Below are positions 738 to 40,356 of a stretch of DNA of 64,000 nt, piece after piece. The DNA comes from an uncultured Actinomycetes bacterium (GTDB taxonomy: Bacteria; Actinomycetota; UBA4738; HRBIN12): NCBI GenBank assembly GCA_963728665.1, contig CAVSLG010000018.1, positions 221,096-285,095 of the forward strand. The letters are read 5' to 3'. The translations under genes and the position numbers were made by a program. The stretch's first letter is position 1; each line of letters begins with the position of its first letter. The notes beneath the pieces were generated by a model. The model was not told where the DNA came from and searched no databases. It was given only the letters and a program-made list of their open reading frames with translations.

Positions 738-1615
738 CGGTCACCGTCGCCCCCGACGCCGCCGAGCTCGCGGTCGTGATCGTGAACTTCAACGCCGGCG
801 CGTACCTCGAGCGCTGCCTGGCGTCGCTCGAGCGTCACCGCGGCGACATCGCGCTCGACGTGCTCGTGATCGACAACGCCTCGCTCGACGGCTCGCACAC
901 CGAGGCGATCGCCGCCCACCCGTGGGCGCGGCTGATCGCGAACCCTTCGAACCTCTACCTCTCGCCCGCGTGGAACCAGGGCATCGCGGCGACCTCGGCG
1001 CCGTACGTGCTGGTGCTGAACCCCGACGTCGAGTGGTGGAAGGGCACGCTCGCTGACTACGTGCGGGTCGCCCGGGCGCACCCGCGTGCCGGCATCGTCG
1101 GCCCGCTCGTGCGCAACTCCGACGGCACCGTCTACGAGAGCGGACGTCCGTTCCCGAGCGTGGTCGACGCCGTCGGCCACGCGTTCCTCGGCTCGGTGCG
1201 GTCCGGTAACCCGTTCACCCGGCGCTACCACCTGGAGGGATGGGATCGTACGAGCGAGCGCGAGGTCGACTGGGTGAGCGGCTGCTGCATGCTGATCCCT
1301 CGCGCCGCCTTCACCGAGGTAGGCACGTTCGACGAAGGGTTCCCGCTCTTCGGCGAGGAGCTGGACATCGCCACGCGTCTGCGCGACGCGGGATGGTCCG
1401 TGCTCTATACGCCGGAGGTCGAGATCGTGCACGAGATCGGTGTCTCGAGGGGTTCCAGCCGCGAGATGCTTCGCATGCACTCCGACAGCATCTACCGTTA
1501 CTACCGCAAGCACCGCGCCGCCGGGTGGCGGCGCGCGACCCTGCCGGCGGCGTGGGCGGTCCTGCGGCTGCGCGCCGAGCTCGAGGCGCAACGAGGGAGG
1601 ATCACGTCACGATGA
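734..1615 (+). CDS. Glycosyltransferase family 2 (WbbL-like)
   Basis: VIVNFN, VIDNAS.DG, LNPD, DWVSGCCML and EELD motifs; GTGA overlap with the upstream gene. Confidence 0.88.
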   Translation: MTVTVAPDAAELAVVIVNFNAGAYLERCLASLERHRGDIALDVLVIDNASLDGSHTEAIAAHPWARLIANPSNLYLSPAWNQGIAATSAPYVLVLNPDVEWWKGTLADYVRVARAHPRAGIVGPLVRNSDGTVYESGRPFPSVVDAVGHAFLGSVRSGNPFTRRYHLEGWDRTSEREVDWVSGCCMLIPRAAFTEVGTFDEGFPLFGEELDIATRLRDAGWSVLYTPEVEIVHEIGVSRGSSREMLRMHSDSIYRYYRKHRAAGWRRATLPAAWAVLRLRAELEAQRGRITSR

Positions 1616-2631
1616 AGGCCGTCGTCCTGGTCGGGGGAGAGGGCACGCGGATGCGACCGCTCACCGAGACCGTGCCGAAGCCCCTGCTGCCGTTGATGGA
1701 CCGGCGCTCGCTCGACCACGTGCTCGACCACCTGGCGCGTCACGGCGTGCACGAAGTGGTGCTGTCGTCGCCCTACCTCGAGGAGGTGTTCCATCCGTTC
1801 ATCGAGGCGCGTCACGGCGACCCGCGGATCACGTGGATCACCGAGACGCATGCACTCGGCACGGGCGGCGCGATCGTGAACGCGCTCGAGGCCGTCGGCG
1901 ACGAACGGTTCTTCGCCCTGAACGGCGACATCCTCACCGACCTCGACCTGACGGCCATGAAGGCGTTCCATGAGGCGAACGGCGCTGCGGTGACGATCGC
2001 CCTTCACCACGTCGACGATGCCCGCGCCTTCGGCCTGGTGGCGACCGACGACGAGGGCAAGGTGCTGGAGTTCCGCGAGAAGCCCGATGATCCGATCCCC
2101 GGCGACGTGAACGCCGGCACGTACCTCCTCGACCCGGCGGTGCTTCGCGACTGGACGCCCGGCGAGACGGTCTCGATCGAGCGTGACGTCTTCCCGGCGG
2201 TGATCGAGGCCCGCCACCCCGTCTACGGATTCGTGGCCGACGCGTACTGGCTCGATCTCGGCACCCCCGAGAAGTACCTGCAGGCCCACTTCGACATGTT
2301 CGAGGGCAAGGTGCACGACGTGATCTATCCGGCGCCATGGGTCGCCGAGGGCGCCACCGTCGACCTGCGGGCGCACCTCGGACGCTGGGTGGCCGTGGGG
2401 CCGGGCGCGACGATCGGCGCCGACGCGCAGGTCGACGACTCCGTGCTGCACGAGGGTGCTCGGATCGGCGCCGGTGCCCGCGTGACCGGGTCCGTGCTGG
2501 CCGCCAACGCGACGATCGGTGAGGGCGCGACCGTCGCGTCGAGCGTCTTAGGTGAGGGCAGCTCCGTACCCGCCGGTACGCACCTCGTCGATGCGAAGGT
2601 GCCCTCGGGTGCGGAGGCAGCGACATCGTGA
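1612..2631 (+). CDS. NDP-sugar pyrophosphorylase, probably mannose-1-phosphate guanylyltransferase
   Basis: MKAVVLVGGEGTRMRPLT..PKPLLP, LGTGGA, LNGDIL, WLDLGTPE and a C-terminal hexapeptide beta-helix. Confidence 0.9.
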   Translation: MKAVVLVGGEGTRMRPLTETVPKPLLPLMDRRSLDHVLDHLARHGVHEVVLSSPYLEEVFHPFIEARHGDPRITWITETHALGTGGAIVNALEAVGDERFFALNGDILTDLDLTAMKAFHEANGAAVTIALHHVDDARAFGLVATDDEGKVLEFREKPDDPIPGDVNAGTYLLDPAVLRDWTPGETVSIERDVFPAVIEARHPVYGFVADAYWLDLGTPEKYLQAHFDMFEGKVHDVIYPAPWVAEGATVDLRAHLGRWVAVGPGATIGADAQVDDSVLHEGARIGAGARVTGSVLAANATIGEGATVASSVLGEGSSVPAGTHLVDAKVPSGAEAATS

Positions 2632-23160: not shown

Positions 23161-23787
23161 GTGGACGGCCGGGTCTCGATCCGCGCGCACTACGAGCGGT
23201 TCCCCGCGACCCTCAAGGGCGCCTTCGTCCTGCGCGGGGAAGATGCGGACCCTCACCAGGTGCGCATCGAGGCGGCCCGGGTCGCTGAGCTTGCCGGGCG
23301 GGAGGGCCAACCGATGGGCGTCGAGCCTGTGACCCTCGACGTCGCGCCGCACCTCGATCTGTTCGTGCCCTTCGAGGTGCCGCTGCTCGATCTCGGCCCC
23401 GGGTGGTTCCGCCTTGAGCTCGACGTGACGGTCGATGGCGACGCAGGAGTGGTGCATCCGGGCGATCGGTTCGTCGTGGCGTGGCCCCGCGGCTCCATGC
23501 GACGGGGATCAGCATCGGTCGGTCGGTCGCTCGAGGCCGGCGCGACGACCGTGACGATCCAGCAGGTGGAATGCGCTCCCGATGGCGTGCGCGTGACCTA
23601 CGAGGCGCGTGCTCGCATCGGGTTCTCGGTGGCGGCCGACGACGTGGTGCTGCCCCAGATCGACGAGGAGTTCGACGATGGGTCCGGGCGAGGAACGGTG
23701 ATGACCTACCCTGCCGCGAAGAGCCAATCACGACTCGCGATCACCGCTCGCGGCGCCGAACGACCGATCGAGATCGACCTGCCCTGA
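23161..23787 (+). CDS. Hypothetical cytoplasmic protein, 208 aa, probably two beta-rich domains
   Basis: Fills the gap between ahcY and comF with typical codon usage; no motif recognised. Confidence 0.6.
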   Translation: MDGRVSIRAHYERFPATLKGAFVLRGEDADPHQVRIEAARVAELAGREGQPMGVEPVTLDVAPHLDLFVPFEVPLLDLGPGWFRLELDVTVDGDAGVVHPGDRFVVAWPRGSMRRGSASVGRSLEAGATTVTIQQVECAPDGVRVTYEARARIGFSVAADDVVLPQIDEEFDDGSGRGTVMTYPAAKSQSRLAITARGAERPIEIDLP

Positions 23788-23824
23788 GGCCCCTCGTGTC
23801 GCACCCGGGCCATATCGTGGGTCC

Positions 23825-24565
23825 GTGCTGGCTCGAGCGCTCGACGTCGTCTTCCCGCCGCGCTGTGCGGGCTGCGGTGCGCCGGCATGGCCGTTCTGCG
23901 AACGGTGCCGGCGTGGGCTCCGTGTGCTGGTGCCTCCGTGGTGCGAGCGTTGCGGCGCTCCGTCGTCGGCCGGCGAGGTGTCGAGATGCGACGAGTGCCC
24001 GCCCGAGCAGATCGCGCAGTCCCGGGCACCGTTCGCGTTCGAGGGTCCTGCCCGCGCCTCGGTGCATCACCTGAAGTACCGAGGGGTGCGCGGCGTCGGC
24101 CGATCGCTCGGCGCAGCGATGGCGACGTGCGTTCCACCGGGGGCCGACGTCGTGACGTGGGTGCCGCTGACGCGGCGGCGGAAGGCCGAGCGGGGATTCG
24201 ATCAGGCGCGAGTGCTGGCGGTCGCGGTCGGCAGGGAGACCGGGCTCCCGGTCCGACGATTGCTGCGCCGCGTCGTCTCGACCGGGCCCCAGGCCAAGCG
24301 AGATGCCGACGCGCGCCGGGCGGCGATGCGCGGGTCGTTCGCTGTCCGAGACCGTGTGGCCGTGTCTGGTCACGTGCTCCTGGTCGACGACGTGCTCACC
24401 ACCGGGGCGACCGCGGCCGCGTGCGCGGAGGTGCTGCTCGCACACGGTGCGTCGCGCGTGTCGCTGCTCGTGGCTGCCCGGGCGCTCCTGCGTACAGGAC
24501 GACCTGCCTATACTCGACCGGGCCCTCGTCCGGGTCTGTGGTTGCCCGGGGACCATCCCCGGTAG
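23825..24565 (+). CDS. comF: ComF-family protein (zinc ribbon + phosphoribosyltransferase)
   Basis: FPPRCAGC, LKYRG, VPL...R..ERGFDQA and LLVDDVLTTGAT; TATCGT 6 nt before the GTG. Confidence 0.9.
   Translation: MLARALDVVFPPRCAGCGAPAWPFCERCRRGLRVLVPPWCERCGAPSSAGEVSRCDECPPEQIAQSRAPFAFEGPARASVHHLKYRGVRGVGRSLGAAMATCVPPGADVVTWVPLTRRRKAERGFDQARVLAVAVGRETGLPVRRLLRRVVSTGPQAKRDADARRAAMRGSFAVRDRVAVSGHVLLVDDVLTTGATAAACAEVLLAHGASRVSLLVAARALLRTGRPAYTRPGPRPGLWLPGDHPR
24509..24514 (+). promoter_or_regulatory. -10 element for the raiA-motif RNA, inside the comF 3' end
   Basis: TATACT 5 nt before the 5' arm of the closing helix. Confidence 0.6.
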
Positions 24566-24756
24566 TCGACGCCAGCCGCGGGCGAAACGACCCACGTAAG
24601 GCGACCCTTGGTCGCTGAGCATGGCGCGGCTTAGATGTAAGCCCTGCCTCGCCTTCGGGCGAGAGAGGGCGGGAGTCACCGGTCTTCGCGACCGGGCGGC
24701 GAGCGCCCCTGCAGGCGGGTGTGGGGGAAAAGACCAGGTCAGCCGGTGGAGGGCCC
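24520..24756 (+). ncRNA. raiA-motif structured RNA
   Basis: Lies between comF and hpf; blocks AGUCGA.GCCAG, AAACGA.CCACGUAAG, UGAGCAUGG.GCGGCUUAGA.GUAAG.CCUGCC and GCAGGCG.GUGUGGGG..AAAGACCAGGUCA match my recollection of the consensus; closing helix GGGCCCUC/GAGGGCCC plus five internal hairpins. Confidence 0.88.
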
Positions 24757-24786
24757 ATCCGACCGAACAAGAGACGACGGAGGCGT

Positions 24787-25173
24787 ATGGATCTGACGTT
24801 CACGGGCCGAGGGCTCCCGGTCACCGACGAGGTGCGGGAGACCGCCGGTCACAAGCTCGCCTACCTGGAGCGCATGGAACCCCGTGCCACGCGCATCGAC
24901 CTCGAGTTCATCGGCGAGCACTATCCCAGCCCCGATGGCGTCAAGCGGGTCGAGGCGGCGCTGCACATCCCGCGCAAGACGTTCCGAGCGCACGCCGAGG
25001 CCGATGACGTGCCGACGGCGATCGATCGGGTGGCCGACAAGCTCGAGCGACAGCTCCGCGACCATCATGGGAAGCGCCGCGCCTGGCTGCACAAGAGCGC
25101 ACTAGAATCCGCTCACCTGAACGCCCCGGCTGCCGATACCGAAGCAGAGGGCGAGACCGAGGGGGAACGGTGA
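24787..25173 (+). CDS. raiA: Ribosome hibernation factor HPF/RaiA, short form (128 aa)
   Basis: MDLTFTGRGL.VTD.VRE....KL and AIDRVADKLERQLR; GGAGG SD; conserved comF-hpf-secA order. Confidence 0.88.
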   Translation: MDLTFTGRGLPVTDEVRETAGHKLAYLERMEPRATRIDLEFIGEHYPSPDGVKRVEAALHIPRKTFRAHAEADDVPTAIDRVADKLERQLRDHHGKRRAWLHKSALESAHLNAPAADTEAEGETEGER

Positions 25174-25856
25174 CGAAGGATGCGAGCGAGGCGCCCGAGC
25201 GACTGCGGGTGATGGTGGTCGACGACCACGCGTTGTTCCGTCGCGGGCTCGAGATGGTCCTTCAGCAGGAGCCCGACATCGAGCTGGTGGGCGAGGCGTC
25301 CGATGGCGCCGAGGCGGTCGAGCGTGCCCAGGAGACGATGCCCGACGTCGTGCTGATGGACGTGCGCATGCCCAAGCGCTCGGGCATCGAGGCAGCGGGG
25401 CAGATCAAGGACCTGCTGCCGCACTGCAAGATCCTGATGCTCACGATCAGCGACGAGGAGGGCGACCTCTACGACGCGATCAAGGCGGGCGCGAGCGGGT
25501 ACCTGCTGAAGGAGATCCCGATCGAGGAGGTCGCCGACGCGATCCGCAGCGTGTGGGCGGGCCAGTCACGCATCTCGCCGTCGATGGCGTCGAAGCTGCT
25601 GACGGAGTTCGCCGCGATGTCGAAGTCGGCCGAGGAGCAGCCGCGCATGCCGGCGCCGAAGCTCACCGATCGCGAGATGGAGGTGCTGCGGCTCGTCGCG
25701 CAGGGTCTGAACAACCGCGACATCGCCAAGCAGCTCTTCATCAGCGAGAACACGGTGAAGAACCACATCCGCAACATCCTCGAGAAGCTGCATCTGCACT
25801 CGCGCATGGAGGCGGTCGTCTACGCCGTGCGCGAGAAGATGATCGAGATCAGCTGA
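25170..25856 (+). CDS. NarL/LuxR-family response regulator, no adjacent kinase
   Basis: VVDDH, LMDVRMP, GASGYLLK and LTDRE.EVLRLVA.GL.N..IA..LFISENTVKNH. Confidence 0.93.
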   Translation: MTKDASEAPERLRVMVVDDHALFRRGLEMVLQQEPDIELVGEASDGAEAVERAQETMPDVVLMDVRMPKRSGIEAAGQIKDLLPHCKILMLTISDEEGDLYDAIKAGASGYLLKEIPIEEVADAIRSVWAGQSRISPSMASKLLTEFAAMSKSAEEQPRMPAPKLTDREMEVLRLVAQGLNNRDIAKQLFISENTVKNHIRNILEKLHLHSRMEAVVYAVREKMIEIS

Positions 25857-25858
25857 GC

Positions 25859-26325
25859 GTGGCCGACCCGACGATCGAGGCCGCCCGCGGACATCCTGGG
25901 CGACTCGCTCGCCGAGCTGCGGAAGGCCGTCGAGGGCTGCTCGGCCGAGGAGCTGAACCGCCGGCCCGCCGACGACGACACGAACCCGCTCGCCGTGCTC
26001 GTGACCCACGCGATGCACAGCACCCGGTCGTGGCTGAGCCTCGCGACGGGCGCACCGCTGCCCGAGCGCGACCGGCCGGCCGAGTTCCTGGTCGTGGTCG
26101 ACGACCCGGAAGCGTTCATCGGGTGGTTCGACGCGATGCGCCGCGGAGTGCCGGGCGCTGCTCGAGGGTGACGTCGCCTTCGACCCGGGCGCGACCGGCA
26201 CGGCGCCGTGGCGCACCGTACGGCTCCGACGAGCCCGTGACCGCGGCCTGGGCGCTGCTGCACGCGCTGGAGCATCTGCGCGAGCACGTGGGCCATGCCC
26301 AGCTCACCCGTCAGCTTCCTCGTAG
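25859..26325 (+). CDS. DinB/DUF664-like protein, frameshifted; end approximate
   Basis: Stitched reading LNRRP....TNPLAVLVTHAM and LLHALEHLREHVGHAQLTRQL. Confidence 0.55.
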
Positions 26326-28084: not shown

Positions 28085-30805
<2,721 letters not shown>

Positions 30806-40007: not shown

Positions 40008-40356
40008 GGGGGTGTACTGGCTTCGATCTGGGCGTTCATCGCTCGGGGGAAGCGGGCCGTGATCCCGGATGTCACGTTAAACGCCGGACAACACACAAGC
40101 GCCAACGAAGAGTACGCGCTCGCTGCCTAAGCGGTAGCCGTCCCCCCCGGGACGTCTGCGACCGGGGGAAGGGCGTCGTGAGCAGACTCACTCCGCCGGT
40201 TCGGCCTCGGGGCCGGCGGGGGACATCGCACCGAGGCTGGCCGAAGGGAACTCTGCCGGTGGGAGCCCTGAGGCGAGATCTCACCGCCTGGCTGCGCCCG
40301 GAGAAGACCCGAGTGGTCGCCGAGAGACAGGGGTTCGAATCCCCTCACCTCCACCA
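40008..40356 (+). ncRNA. ssrA: tmRNA; tag peptide ANEEYALAA (40101-40130)
   Basis: Acceptor GGGGGUG/CACCUCC-ACCA with G3.U wobble; T-arm GGGUUCGAAUCCC; tag ORF ending ALAA-stop; smpB nearby. Confidence 0.95.

What the first reader, a model, noticed from the sequence alone, without database searches (positions are those of the whole stretch)
24520..24756. Complete raiA-motif RNA with own promoter and an extra hairpin
Seen: a closing helix plus hairpins at 24546-62, 24601-15, 24628-43, 24648-63 (UUCG loop) and 24679-95, conserved single-stranded blocks, and a TATACT -10 just upstream. Established: raiA-motif RNAs are large, highly conserved ncRNAs of Bacillota and Actinomycetota, often between comF and raiA, with no settled biochemical function. 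The CCGGGGA-CCA-UCCCCGG insert replaces a short linker I recall in clostridial examples. The ORF track does not show this element.
Basis: partly seen in the sequence, partly recalled or inferred. Interest (0 to 1): 0.8.

Follow-up and report, generated by a model that had tools for sequence, protein, structure and literature searches.

The report
Known raiA (ModT) RNA, P2 subtype
This is a genuine, complete copy of the already described raiA/ModT structured non-coding RNA in an uncultured actinobacterium, and the "extra hairpin" is the family's known optional P2 stem, so the element is real but ordinary.

Summary
Window 24525-24751 (+) matches Rfam RF03072 (raiA) over the whole model: 144.3 bits against a gathering score of 101.3, E 1e-35. 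The 17-nt insert relative to the model is a 6-bp hairpin at 24546-24562. It sits where the published P2 stem sits. P2 is present in 42% of raiA RNAs and was resolved by cryo-EM in a Nocardioides raiA RNA (PMC10861870, PMC12968392), so it is not new.

All 30 aligned relatives from 8 families of the same order carry P2. At least 119 species-level genomes match a P2-type pattern.

The published fold (P1-P8, PK1, PK2) fits: 96.6% of cells paired, against 34-46% in slid controls, and 27 pairs show compensatory changes.

The TATACT box (24509-14) is a conserved TANNNT element. It lies inside comFC codons.

Three lineage details stand out:
- P1 extends 5 bp beyond the Rfam model, giving an RNA of about 24520-24756.
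- The comFC stop codon is the invariant UAG of the RNA's J1 junction.
- A short hpf starts 30-35 nt downstream, with no terminator or promoter-like box in between, so co-transcription is likely.

Biochemical function remains unknown, as for the whole family.

The parts
24509..24514 (+). -10 promoter box TATACT (TANNNT type) of the raiA RNA, inside comFC codons (…PAYTR…)
   Evidence: T24509, A24510 and T24514 are invariant in 30 relatives from 8 families. A TANNNT box lies 10-12 nt before model position 1 in 106/113 species. The sigma-70 two-hexamer scan found nothing, so no -35 consensus is present.
24520..24756 (+). Predicted full raiA/ModT RNA (about 237 nt), from the inferred start (G24520-G24521, 6-7 nt after the -10 box) to the end of the extended closing helix
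   Evidence: Rfam match 24525-24751 plus a 5-bp covarying extension of P1. Both ends are inferred, not mapped.
24520..24524 (+). P1 extension, 5' strand (GGGCC); pairs with 24752-24756 (GGCCC)
   Evidence: Pair counts: C24524-G24752 is CG 16, UA 11, UG 3; the next pairs show GC/AU/GU and CG/GC changes. A 5-6 bp extension is present in 72/113 species. It lies outside the Rfam model.
24525..24543 (+). P1a (24525-33), GU bulge (24534-35), P1b (24536-38) and P1c (24539-42), 5' strands. Partners are 24743-51, 24740-42 and 24733-36; the GGU bulge is 24737-39.
   Evidence: cmscan alignment. The P1a+extension+P1b helix has 17 pairs, 10 with compensatory changes, 95.5% paired; P1c has 4 pairs, 100% paired.
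24546..24562 (+). P2 hairpin (the 'extra hairpin'): 6 bp, CCGGGG/CCCCGG, loop ACCAU. It is flanked by U24543, G24544, C24545 and U24563, A24564, which correspond to the J1 junction nucleotides U19, G20, C21 / U59, A60 of the Nocardioides structure.
   Evidence: 17-nt insert relative to the Rfam model. Present in all 30 relatives, 100% paired, two distal pairs GC<->AU. Junction description from PMC12968392.
24565..24591 (+). P3a (24565-68/24588-91) and P3b (24571-73/24581-83), with the apical loop 24574-80 that forms PK1
   Evidence: Mapped from the cryo-EM description. All pairs are 100% paired but nearly invariant, so covariation is uninformative here.
24625..24630 (+). PK1 3' strand (CGCGGC); pairs with 24575-24580
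   Evidence: 6 pairs, 100% paired. G24580-C24625 is GC 16 / AU 14; a second pair shows CG/UG/UA.
24592..24596 (+). P4 5' strand (CCACG); pairs with 24720-24724 (UGUGG)
   Evidence: 5 invariant pairs, 100% paired. Placement follows PMC12968392.
24600..24616 (+). P5 hairpin
   Evidence: 6 pairs, 97.8% paired. Recovered by the MFE fold.
24622..24623 (+). PK2 5' strand. U24622-A24729 is a standard pair. G24623 faces A24728, giving G.A where most relatives have G-C.
   Evidence: In one search the second pair is GC in 22 of 30 and non-standard in 8 of 30, including this genome. In the wider set, A at this position occurs in 15 of 113.
24631..24640 (+). Conserved single-stranded linker UUAGAUGUAA, proposed as the KhpA-KhpB binding site in the literature
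   Evidence: Invariant except at one position in the alignment. UUAGAUGUAAG occurs in 73/113 species. Role as proposed in PMC12968392.
24643..24715 (+). P6 (24643-47/24711-15) enclosing P7 (24648-63, UUCG loop) and P8 (24667-24708, distal stem 24679-95)
   Evidence: cmscan alignment. P6 is invariant; P7 has 4 compensatory pairs; P8 is variable with compensatory changes.
23825..24565 (+). comFC-like gene (double zinc ribbon plus phosphoribosyltransferase). Its last 46 nt overlap the RNA, and its stop codon UAG (24563-65) is the invariant J1 UAG.
   Evidence: Pfam and NCBIfam hits. Tail translation …AYTRPGPRPGLWLPGDHPR*. The same stop codon is used in 71/102 species.
24787..25173 (+). hpf/yfiA (short, 128 aa, S30AE domain only), preceded by a GGAGG ribosome-binding site. 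It starts 35 nt after the Rfam match and 30 nt after the extended P1.
   Evidence: PF02482 at 61.9 bits and TIGR00741 at 54.7 bits (cut-off 40.9). No terminator-like site. No TANNNT between the RNA linker and hpf in 93/95 species.
25170..25856 (+). NarL/LuxR-type response regulator; its start overlaps the hpf stop (GTGA)
   Evidence: Pfam Response_reg plus GerE. 'RR' is a published common neighbour of raiA (PMC10861870).

Best explanation
The interval encodes a full-length raiA-motif RNA (also called ModT, Rfam RF03072) of the subtype that has both P2 and P8. The host is an uncultured Actinomycetota bacterium.

Shown here:
- The sequence fits the family model and the published cryo-EM architecture: P1a/b/c, P2, P3a/b, P4-P8, PK1 and PK2.
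- A conserved TANNNT -10 box lies just upstream.
- The RNA is single-copy and sits in the canonical position between comFC and hpf.

Inferred:
- Transcription starts at about G24520-21, from a promoter written into the last codons of comFC.
- The RNA folds into the compact pyramidal raiA fold, with a closing helix 5 bp longer than the Rfam model.
- There is no terminator-like site and no -10-like box before hpf, which starts 30-35 nt downstream. The same transcript therefore probably continues into hpf and the response-regulator gene.
- The stable RNA would then be released by trimming or cleavage at the base of P1.

By analogy with Clostridium acetobutylicum and Clostridioides difficile, the RNA most likely acts in trans. 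It would be an abundant structured RNA, possibly in a complex with the KH-domain proteins KhpA and KhpB through the exposed linker UUAGAUGUAA, that modulates the transition to stationary phase. Its biochemical activity is unknown for the whole family.

My own odds: family membership 0.98; own promoter 0.85; co-transcription with hpf 0.6; trans-acting ribonucleoprotein mode 0.5.
For: - Family match: 144.3 bits against a gathering score of 101.3, E 1e-35, full model.
- One copy in the genome. One copy in 40/41 relatives and in 57/151 genomes sampled across the phylum.
- Cryo-EM-type structure on 30 relatives: 96.6% of cells paired against 34-46% when partners are slid; 27 pairs with compensatory changes; 0/500 shuffles reach the observed values.
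- P2 is present and covarying in all relatives.
- The P2 and J1 nucleotides match the description of Nocardioides Ns-raiA.
- The -10 box is invariant and present in 113/113 species, at fixed spacing in 106.
- Neighbouring genes are a ComF-family gene, an HPF/YfiA gene and a response regulator, as published for the family.
- No terminator-like site.
- hpf starts a median of 37.5 nt downstream in 106/113 species. Only 2/95 loci have a -10-like box in between, against about 20 expected from shuffles.
- KhpA and KhpB are encoded in this genome.
- Trans action, abundance and KhpA/B binding are published for clostridial and Nocardioides RNAs.
Against: - There are no transcript data for this organism.
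- The generic promoter scan found no two-hexamer sigma-70 site. The promoter call rests on a -10 box alone.
- All functional evidence comes from Clostridia. No raiA RNA of Actinomycetota has been studied genetically in the papers I could read.
- KhpA-KhpB binding is only micromolar, and these proteins bind many RNAs.
- One PK2 pair is G.A here instead of G-C.
- The P8 internal loop (AGUC/GAG) departs from the consensus E-loop letters.
Confidence: 0.75

Rival explanations
1. In this lineage the RNA works mainly in cis, as a structured 5' leader of the hpf-response regulator mRNA. It would sense a signal, or act as a stability or processing module, and so set hpf expression. On this reading it is not an independent trans-acting RNA.
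For: - hpf starts 30-35 nt after the RNA here, and a median of 37.5 nt after it in 106/113 related species, always on the same strand.
- There is no terminator-like site and almost never a -10-like box in between (2/95).
- Rfam types the family as 'Cis-reg; riboswitch'.
- Weinberg 2017 noted that the motif is often in potential 5' UTRs.
Against: - Deletion phenotypes in two Clostridia are rescued in trans.
- In vitro tests found no small-molecule binding.
- No conserved expression platform was found. The only alternative pairing seen (P1 5' strand with hpf codons 24808-15) is not conserved in relatives.
- The ribosome-binding site is not sequestered by any conserved helix.
- In many other lineages the RNA is far from, or opposite to, the downstream gene.
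Confidence: 0.15
2. The RNA has no promoter of its own and is the 3' tail of the comFC transcript. The 'TATACT' would then be conserved only because it encodes ComFC residues. The stable RNA would be cut out of the comFC-raiA-hpf read-through transcript.
For: - The comFC reading frame runs 46 nt into the RNA, so comFC mRNA must include at least P1 and P2.
- comFC has its own conserved upstream TANNNT box (23813-18).
- No -35 element precedes the RNA.
Against: - The TANNNT box is kept at a fixed distance from P1 even where comFC ends upstream of it or uses another frame (G002, G022, G037, G031; 19/102).
- Its variants (TATACT, TATCCT, TATGCT, TATAAT, TACAAT) keep the T-A...T pattern rather than a peptide.
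- The P1 extension begins just where a transcript from this box would start.
Confidence: 0.08
3. The RNA is a ribozyme: a self-processing or trans-cleaving catalytic RNA. This has been speculated for the family because of its size and conservation.
For: The fold is highly conserved, pseudoknotted and compact, with many invariant nucleotides. The idea is raised in PMC10861870 and PMC11706538.
Against: No catalytic activity has been reported in any of the papers read. The cryo-EM structures show no known active-site architecture. Nothing in this window bears on the question.
Confidence: 0.07

Closest known systems
raiA motif RNA of Nocardioides sp. Iso805N (Ns-raiA, 253 nt; cryo-EM at 3.0 A, He et al. 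2026, PMC12968392)
   Same: Same phylum and same subtype, with all eight stems P1-P8 plus PK1 and PK2. It has the same four-way junction J1, in which P2 stacks on P1c and the U-G-C / U-A junction nucleotides are retained (24543-45 / 24563-64). It also shares the GU and GGU bulges in P1 and the UUAGAYGUAA linker.
   Different: P2 here is much shorter (19 nt between the junction nucleotides, against 39 nt), and P7 is a 6-bp UUCG hairpin rather than 14 bp. One PK2 pair is G.A here. P1 can extend 5 bp beyond the construct and model boundary.
raiA motif RNA of Clostridium acetobutylicum (Ca-raiA, 204 nt; Soares et al. 2024, PMC10861870) and ModT of Clostridioides difficile (PMC11706538)
   Same: Same Rfam family, same core (P1, P3-P8, PK1, PK2) and the same comFC-RNA-hpf neighbourhood. 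Both are single-copy with an own promoter.
   Different: The clostridial RNAs lack P2, having a GAA(A) tetraloop-like linker instead. They stand alone with their own terminator (C. acetobutylicum; predicted near the 3' end in C. difficile), and C. difficile makes a second, longer read-through isoform. The RNA here has no terminator and abuts hpf. All functional data (abundance, sporulation, aggregation, c-di-GMP, KhpA/B pull-down) come from these Clostridia, not from Actinomycetota.

Membership tests
raiA motif RNA / ModT (Rfam RF03072) | Covariance-model score at or above the curated gathering score over the full model | tested here: met
   144.3 bits against 101.3, E 9.9e-36, model 1-209 of 209, no truncation.
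raiA motif RNA / ModT (Rfam RF03072) | Closing stem P1 in three segments, with the conserved GU bulge (P1a/P1b) and GGU bulge (P1b/P1c) | tested here: met
   The GU bulge is 24534-35 and the GGU bulge is 24737-39. P1a+extension+P1b are 95.5% paired with 10 compensatory pairs and P1c is 100% paired in 30 relatives. This genome has two mismatches inside P1a.
raiA motif RNA / ModT (Rfam RF03072) | Core of P3a-P3b and P4, with pseudoknot PK1 between the P3b loop and the P5-P6 linker | tested here: met
   All P3a, P3b, P4 and PK1 pairs can form. PK1 is 100% paired, with a GC<->AU switch in 14 of 30 relatives.
raiA motif RNA / ModT (Rfam RF03072) | Pseudoknot PK2 (two Watson-Crick pairs between the P5-P6 linker and the P4-P1c linker) | tested here: inconclusive
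   U24622-A24729 is a standard pair. G24623 faces A24728 (G.A), whereas 22 of 30 relatives have G-C. The published PK2 also contains G.A pairs, so this may be tolerated.
raiA motif RNA / ModT (Rfam RF03072) | Highly conserved single-stranded linker UUAGA(C/A)GUAA between PK1 and P6 | tested here: met
   UUAGAUGUAA at 24631-40. The only variable position has U here; the relatives show U, A, G or C.
raiA motif RNA / ModT (Rfam RF03072) | P6 multi-stem domain (P7 + P8) with an E-loop in P8 (68% subtype) | tested here: inconclusive
   P6, P7 and P8 are present and covary. The internal loop letters (G-AGUC / GCGAG) differ from the consensus (AGUA / GAA). Whether an E-loop forms cannot be judged from sequence alone.
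raiA motif RNA / ModT (Rfam RF03072) | Optional P2 stem at J1 (42% subtype) | tested here: met
   A 6-bp hairpin at 24546-62 at the exact J1 position. It is present in all 30 relatives, 100% paired, with 2 covarying pairs. Definition from PMC10861870 and PMC12968392.
raiA motif RNA / ModT (Rfam RF03072) | Single copy per genome, typically downstream of comFC and upstream of raiA/hpf, in Bacillota or Actinomycetota | tested here: met
   One copy. ComF-family gene upstream, HPF/YfiA gene downstream, then a response regulator, with SecA further on. Relatives are titled Actinomycetota MAGs.
raiA motif RNA / ModT (Rfam RF03072) | Abundant, stable transcript that acts in trans (stationary-phase transition phenotypes) | not testable with these tools
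The organism is uncultured. The only support is by analogy.

The most novel reading that the evidence does not exclude
In this uncultured actinobacterial order the raiA RNA may not be a free-standing gene. It may instead be the hub of a compact, overlapping comFC / raiA / hpf unit with three features. First, its promoter and its P1-P2 5' portion are written in comFC codons, and in about 70% of species comFC translation terminates on the invariant J1 UAG. Second, its closing stem is 5 bp longer than the supposedly length-invariant P1a. Third, a single promoter drives the RNA and a short hpf as one transcript. Production of the abundant stationary-phase RNA and of the ribosome-hibernation factor would then be stoichiometrically or processively coupled. 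That would point to a direct role of raiA RNA in ribosome hibernation.
Probability: 0.15. Interest if true: 0.5.

Novelty: already known. Interest (0 to 1): 0.18.

Why it matters
The raiA/ModT family is one of the most widespread large bacterial RNAs whose biochemical function is still unknown, so each well-described copy has some value. This one adds no new kind of element. The model in Rfam finds it, and its P2-bearing architecture has already been solved by cryo-EM.

Its modest value lies in showing how the gene is wired in an uncultured high-GC lineage:
- the promoter lies inside comFC codons;
- the comFC stop codon lies inside the RNA;
- there is no terminator;
- hpf lies directly behind the RNA.

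This weakens, for Actinomycetota, the published argument that the RNA is usually far from the downstream gene. It also suggests that actinobacterial model organisms would be good places to test a link between raiA RNA and ribosome hibernation.

Tried and rejected

2. Generic sigma-70 and intrinsic-terminator scan of 23700-26000. It returned no hits. The promoter call therefore rests on conservation of a TANNNT box alone.

3. I rejected it. The pairs do not covary (for example G.A in G003), and the segment is the PK1 strand plus the exposed linker in the solved structures.

4. A riboswitch-like expression platform. Folding 24520-24815 gave an alternative 8-bp pairing of the P1 5' strand with hpf codons 24808-15. 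The partner sequence is not kept in relatives (for example CGCGGG or CGAGAC in place of CGAGGG), and the z-score of the longer fold is only -1.5, so I judge this a chance pairing.

5. First alignment. It mixed strands, because loci from minus-strand matches are not re-oriented. I discarded it and redid the alignment.

6. The Rfam consensus structure itself. Some of its helices (AcG/UgU, uC/Gg) come from an older model and conflict with the cryo-EM P3b and P4. I used the published architecture for the pair counts instead.

7. I considered that the P2 insert could be a lineage novelty. I rejected this on the basis of the literature (42% of members) and its universal presence in relatives.
Full report
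**What is there**

A scan of the whole window against Rfam 15 gives one hit in the flagged interval. It is RF03072 (raiA) at 24525-24751 on the + strand: 144.3 bits against a gathering score of 101.3, E 9.9e-36, covering model positions 1-209 of 209 with no truncation. The only other hit in the window is an ordinary tmRNA at 40008-40356. The assembly that holds the window is a 3.35-Mb, 31-contig, roughly 75%-complete genome. It has exactly one raiA copy.

**Surroundings**

- Upstream is a 246-aa ORF (23825-24565) with a double zinc ribbon and a phosphoribosyltransferase domain. It matches the ComF/GntX family below NCBIfam's cut-offs.
- Downstream is a 128-aa HPF/YfiA-family protein (24787-25173; PF02482 at 61.9 bits; TIGR00741 at 54.7 bits against a cut-off of 40.9). 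It has only the S30AE domain.
- A NarL/LuxR-type response regulator follows; its start overlaps the hpf stop (25170-25856).
- Next comes a TPP enzyme, and then SecA (28085-30805).
- comFC upstream, raiA/hpf downstream, and "RR" and secA nearby are the published gene associations of the family (Soares et al. 2024, PMC10861870).
- Further upstream are adenosylhomocysteinase, a phosphorylase-superfamily protein and a conserved 208-aa protein with no family hit.

**The "extra hairpin"**

Relative to the Rfam model there is a 17-nt insert, which forms the hairpin CCGGGG-ACCAU-CCCCGG (24546-62). The literature settles what it is. The updated consensus has stems P1-P8 and two pseudoknots, and 42% of the 2,377 known sequences carry an additional stem P2 at exactly this site (PMC10861870; PMC12968392).

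The cryo-EM structure of the Nocardioides sp. Iso805N RNA shows P2 stacked on P1c at a four-way junction, with U19-A60, G20-A232 and C21-U59 at the junction. In the window, the nucleotides that flank the hairpin are U24543, G24544, C24545 and U24563, A24564, and A24730 lies in the P4-P1c linker. These are the same letters in the same order.

However, P2 is a named, solved, common variant and not a novelty.

**Relatives**

- raiA is present once in 40 of 41 relatives, spanning 14 genera and 8 families of the same order. All but two listed matches are 224-244 nt, longer than the 209-position model, as an insert such as P2 would give.
- In an oriented alignment of 30 of them, P2 is present in every sequence. 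The two distal pairs switch between G-C and A-U.
Almost all are titled as uncultured Actinomycetota or Actinomycetes MAGs from soil, groundwater and similar sources.
- In an even sample of the phylum, 57 of 151 genomes have one copy each, 209-320 nt long. The copy here (227 nt, 144 bits) is mid-range.

**Fold**

I mapped the published architecture onto the window:

| Element | Coordinates |
|---|---|
| P1a | 24525-33 / 24743-51 |
| P1b | 24536-38 / 24740-42 |
| P1c | 24539-42 / 24733-36 |
| P2 | 24546-62 |
| P3a | 24565-68 / 24588-91 |
| P3b | 24571-73 / 24581-83 |
| PK1 | 24575-80 / 24625-30 |
| P4 | 24592-96 / 24720-24 |
| P5 | 24600-16 |
| PK2 | 24622-23 / 24728-29 |
| P6 | 24643-47 / 24711-15 |
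| P7 | 24648-63 |
| P8 | 24667-24708 |

I then counted pairs on the 30-sequence alignment:

- 96.6% of cells form standard pairs, against 34-46% when the 3' partners are slid by 1-3 columns.
- 27 of 74 pairs have changes on both sides.
- No shuffle out of 500 reaches the observed values.
- PK1 shows a clean GC/AU switch (16 against 14).
- The thermodynamic fold of 24520-24756 recovers P1, P2, P5, P7 and distal P8, and beats all 200 shuffles (z -2.7).

The fifth (24628-43) is not. It combines the PK1 3' strand with the conserved linker UUAGAUGUAA, which is single-stranded and solvent-exposed in all solved structures. Its proposed pairs do not covary.

There are small departures from the consensus in this genome:

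- two mismatches inside P1a;
- a G.A in place of a G-C in PK2, shared with 7 other genomes of the genus;
- P8 internal-loop letters that differ from the canonical E-loop.

**Promoter and ends (inferred)**

TATACT at 24509-14 is a TANNNT box whose T, A and final T are invariant in all 30 relatives. In 113 species-level loci, a TANNNT box is always found, and in 106 of them it ends 10-12 nt before model position 1. The variants are TATACT, TATCCT, TATGCT, TATAAT and others. From general knowledge of actinobacterial promoters, transcription starts 6-7 nt after such a box, which gives a start at about G24520-21.

This fits a second observation. The closing helix continues 5 bp beyond the Rfam model (GGGCC 24520-24 with GGCCC 24752-56), with covariation. 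For example, the pair 24524-24752 is C-G in 16, U-A in 11 and U-G in 3 relatives. A 5-6 bp extension is seen in 72 of 113 species.

The generic two-hexamer promoter scan and the intrinsic-terminator scan found nothing.

**Wiring peculiar to this lineage**

1. The comFC frame has no stop until UAG 24563-65, which is the invariant "UAG" of the J1/P3a junction. The -10 box, the P1 5' strand and P2 thus also encode the ComFC tail …AYTRPGPRPGLWLPGDHPR*. Among 102 species where the comFC frame could be followed:
   - 71 stop at this UAG;
   - 10 stop at the UAA of GUAAGG;
   - 2 stop at the UGA of GCUGAGC;
   - 19 stop upstream.

   These genomes are related, so the bias is not an independent count. 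The box keeps its T-A...T pattern and spacing even where comFC ends earlier or uses another frame. This argues that it is conserved as a promoter rather than as codons.

2. hpf starts 35 nt after the Rfam match. In 106 of 113 species a short hpf (median 123 aa) starts a median of 37.5 nt downstream on the same strand. Only 2 of 95 such loci have any TANNNT between the RNA's linker and the hpf ribosome-binding site, against about 20 expected from shuffles. hpf therefore probably depends on the raiA promoter, or on comFC read-through. The published argument that the RNA is usually hundreds of nucleotides from the next gene does not apply here.

3. I found no conserved expression platform. The one alternative pairing that a longer fold suggested is not conserved.

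**How it most likely works**

For the family as a whole:

- The RNA is among the most abundant cellular RNAs.
- It peaks at the transition to stationary phase.
- Its deletion impairs sporulation and aggregation in C. acetobutylicum, and delays the transition phase and raises c-di-GMP in C. difficile.
- These phenotypes are rescued in trans.
- It pulls down KhpA and KhpB. The C. acetobutylicum heterodimer binds four raiA RNAs, including the Nocardioides one, at about 2 uM. The exposed UUAGAYGUAA linker is proposed as the site.

This genome encodes KhpA (after rpsP) and KhpB (between yidC and rsmG), and the linker is intact.

My best reading is a trans-acting structured RNA, possibly a KhpA/B ribonucleoprotein. 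It would be made from its own promoter on a transcript that runs on into hpf, and be released by trimming to the base of the extended P1. A purely cis-acting leader role is the main rival (0.15).

The biochemical activity is unknown, and nothing in this window resolves it.

**Verdict**

The element is real, complete and correctly identified, and it is an ordinary member of a known family and of a known subtype. Earlier notes of this scan on raiA copies in other genomes reached the same conclusion. Two of them describe similar wiring: a promoter inside comFC codons with an extended P1, and read-through into the next gene. I treated them as leads and tested the corresponding features here on this lineage's own sequences.

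Noticed in passing
window 24520-24565 (overlap of comFC 23825-24565 with the raiA RNA): The comFC reading frame runs 46 nt into the RNA gene and stops on the invariant UAG of the RNA's J1 junction (24563-65). In 102 related species where the frame could be followed, 71 use this UAG, 12 use two other invariant stop triplets inside the RNA, and 19 stop upstream. The word 'overlap' does not occur in the main family paper (PMC10861870); the others were not checked.
   Followed up: partly
window 24520-24524 / 24752-24756: The closing stem P1 extends 5 bp beyond the Rfam model, with covariation, and by 5-6 bp in 72/113 species. The literature describes the length of P1a as highly conserved, so this lineage may have a longer closing helix than the constructs used for structure work.
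   Followed up: partly
window 24787-25173: The hpf here and in the relatives is short (96-134 aa in nearly all; median 123 aa) and has only the S30AE domain. It lacks the C-terminal dimerisation domain that is, from my own knowledge, typical of the 'long' HPFs of Gram-positive bacteria. This would suggest 70S-type rather than 100S-type hibernation.
   Followed up: no
window 23797-23827: comFC has its own conserved upstream signals. A nearly invariant TGTC (23797-800) and a TAnnnT box (TATCGT, 23813-18) end 6 nt before the GTG start (23825), so comFC is probably translated from a leaderless mRNA. TGTC is too close to the -10 box to be a normal -35 element and could be a regulator site.
   Followed up: no
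window 23161-23787: A 208-aa ORF between adenosylhomocysteinase and comFC has no Pfam or NCBIfam hit. It is conserved at the DNA and protein level across the order (…HYERFPATLKGAFVLRG…).
   Followed up: no
window 40008-40356: Ordinary tmRNA gene (RF00023, 132.1 bits, full length).
   Followed up: no
G000 contig C23:144633-144851 (locus L150, ORF 1492-2286, minus strand): The KhpA-type KH domain lies in the same open frame as ribosomal protein S16, joined by a long low-complexity linker, in a single 264-aa ORF with no stop between them. This is either an rpsP-khpA fusion or an unrecognised internal start.
   Followed up: no
window 24728 (and relatives): The PK2 pseudoknot position that is C in most relatives (pairing with invariant G24623) is A in this genome and in 7 other genomes of the genus. 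This turns a G-C pair into G.A next to the two G.A pairs already described in PK2.
   Followed up: partly
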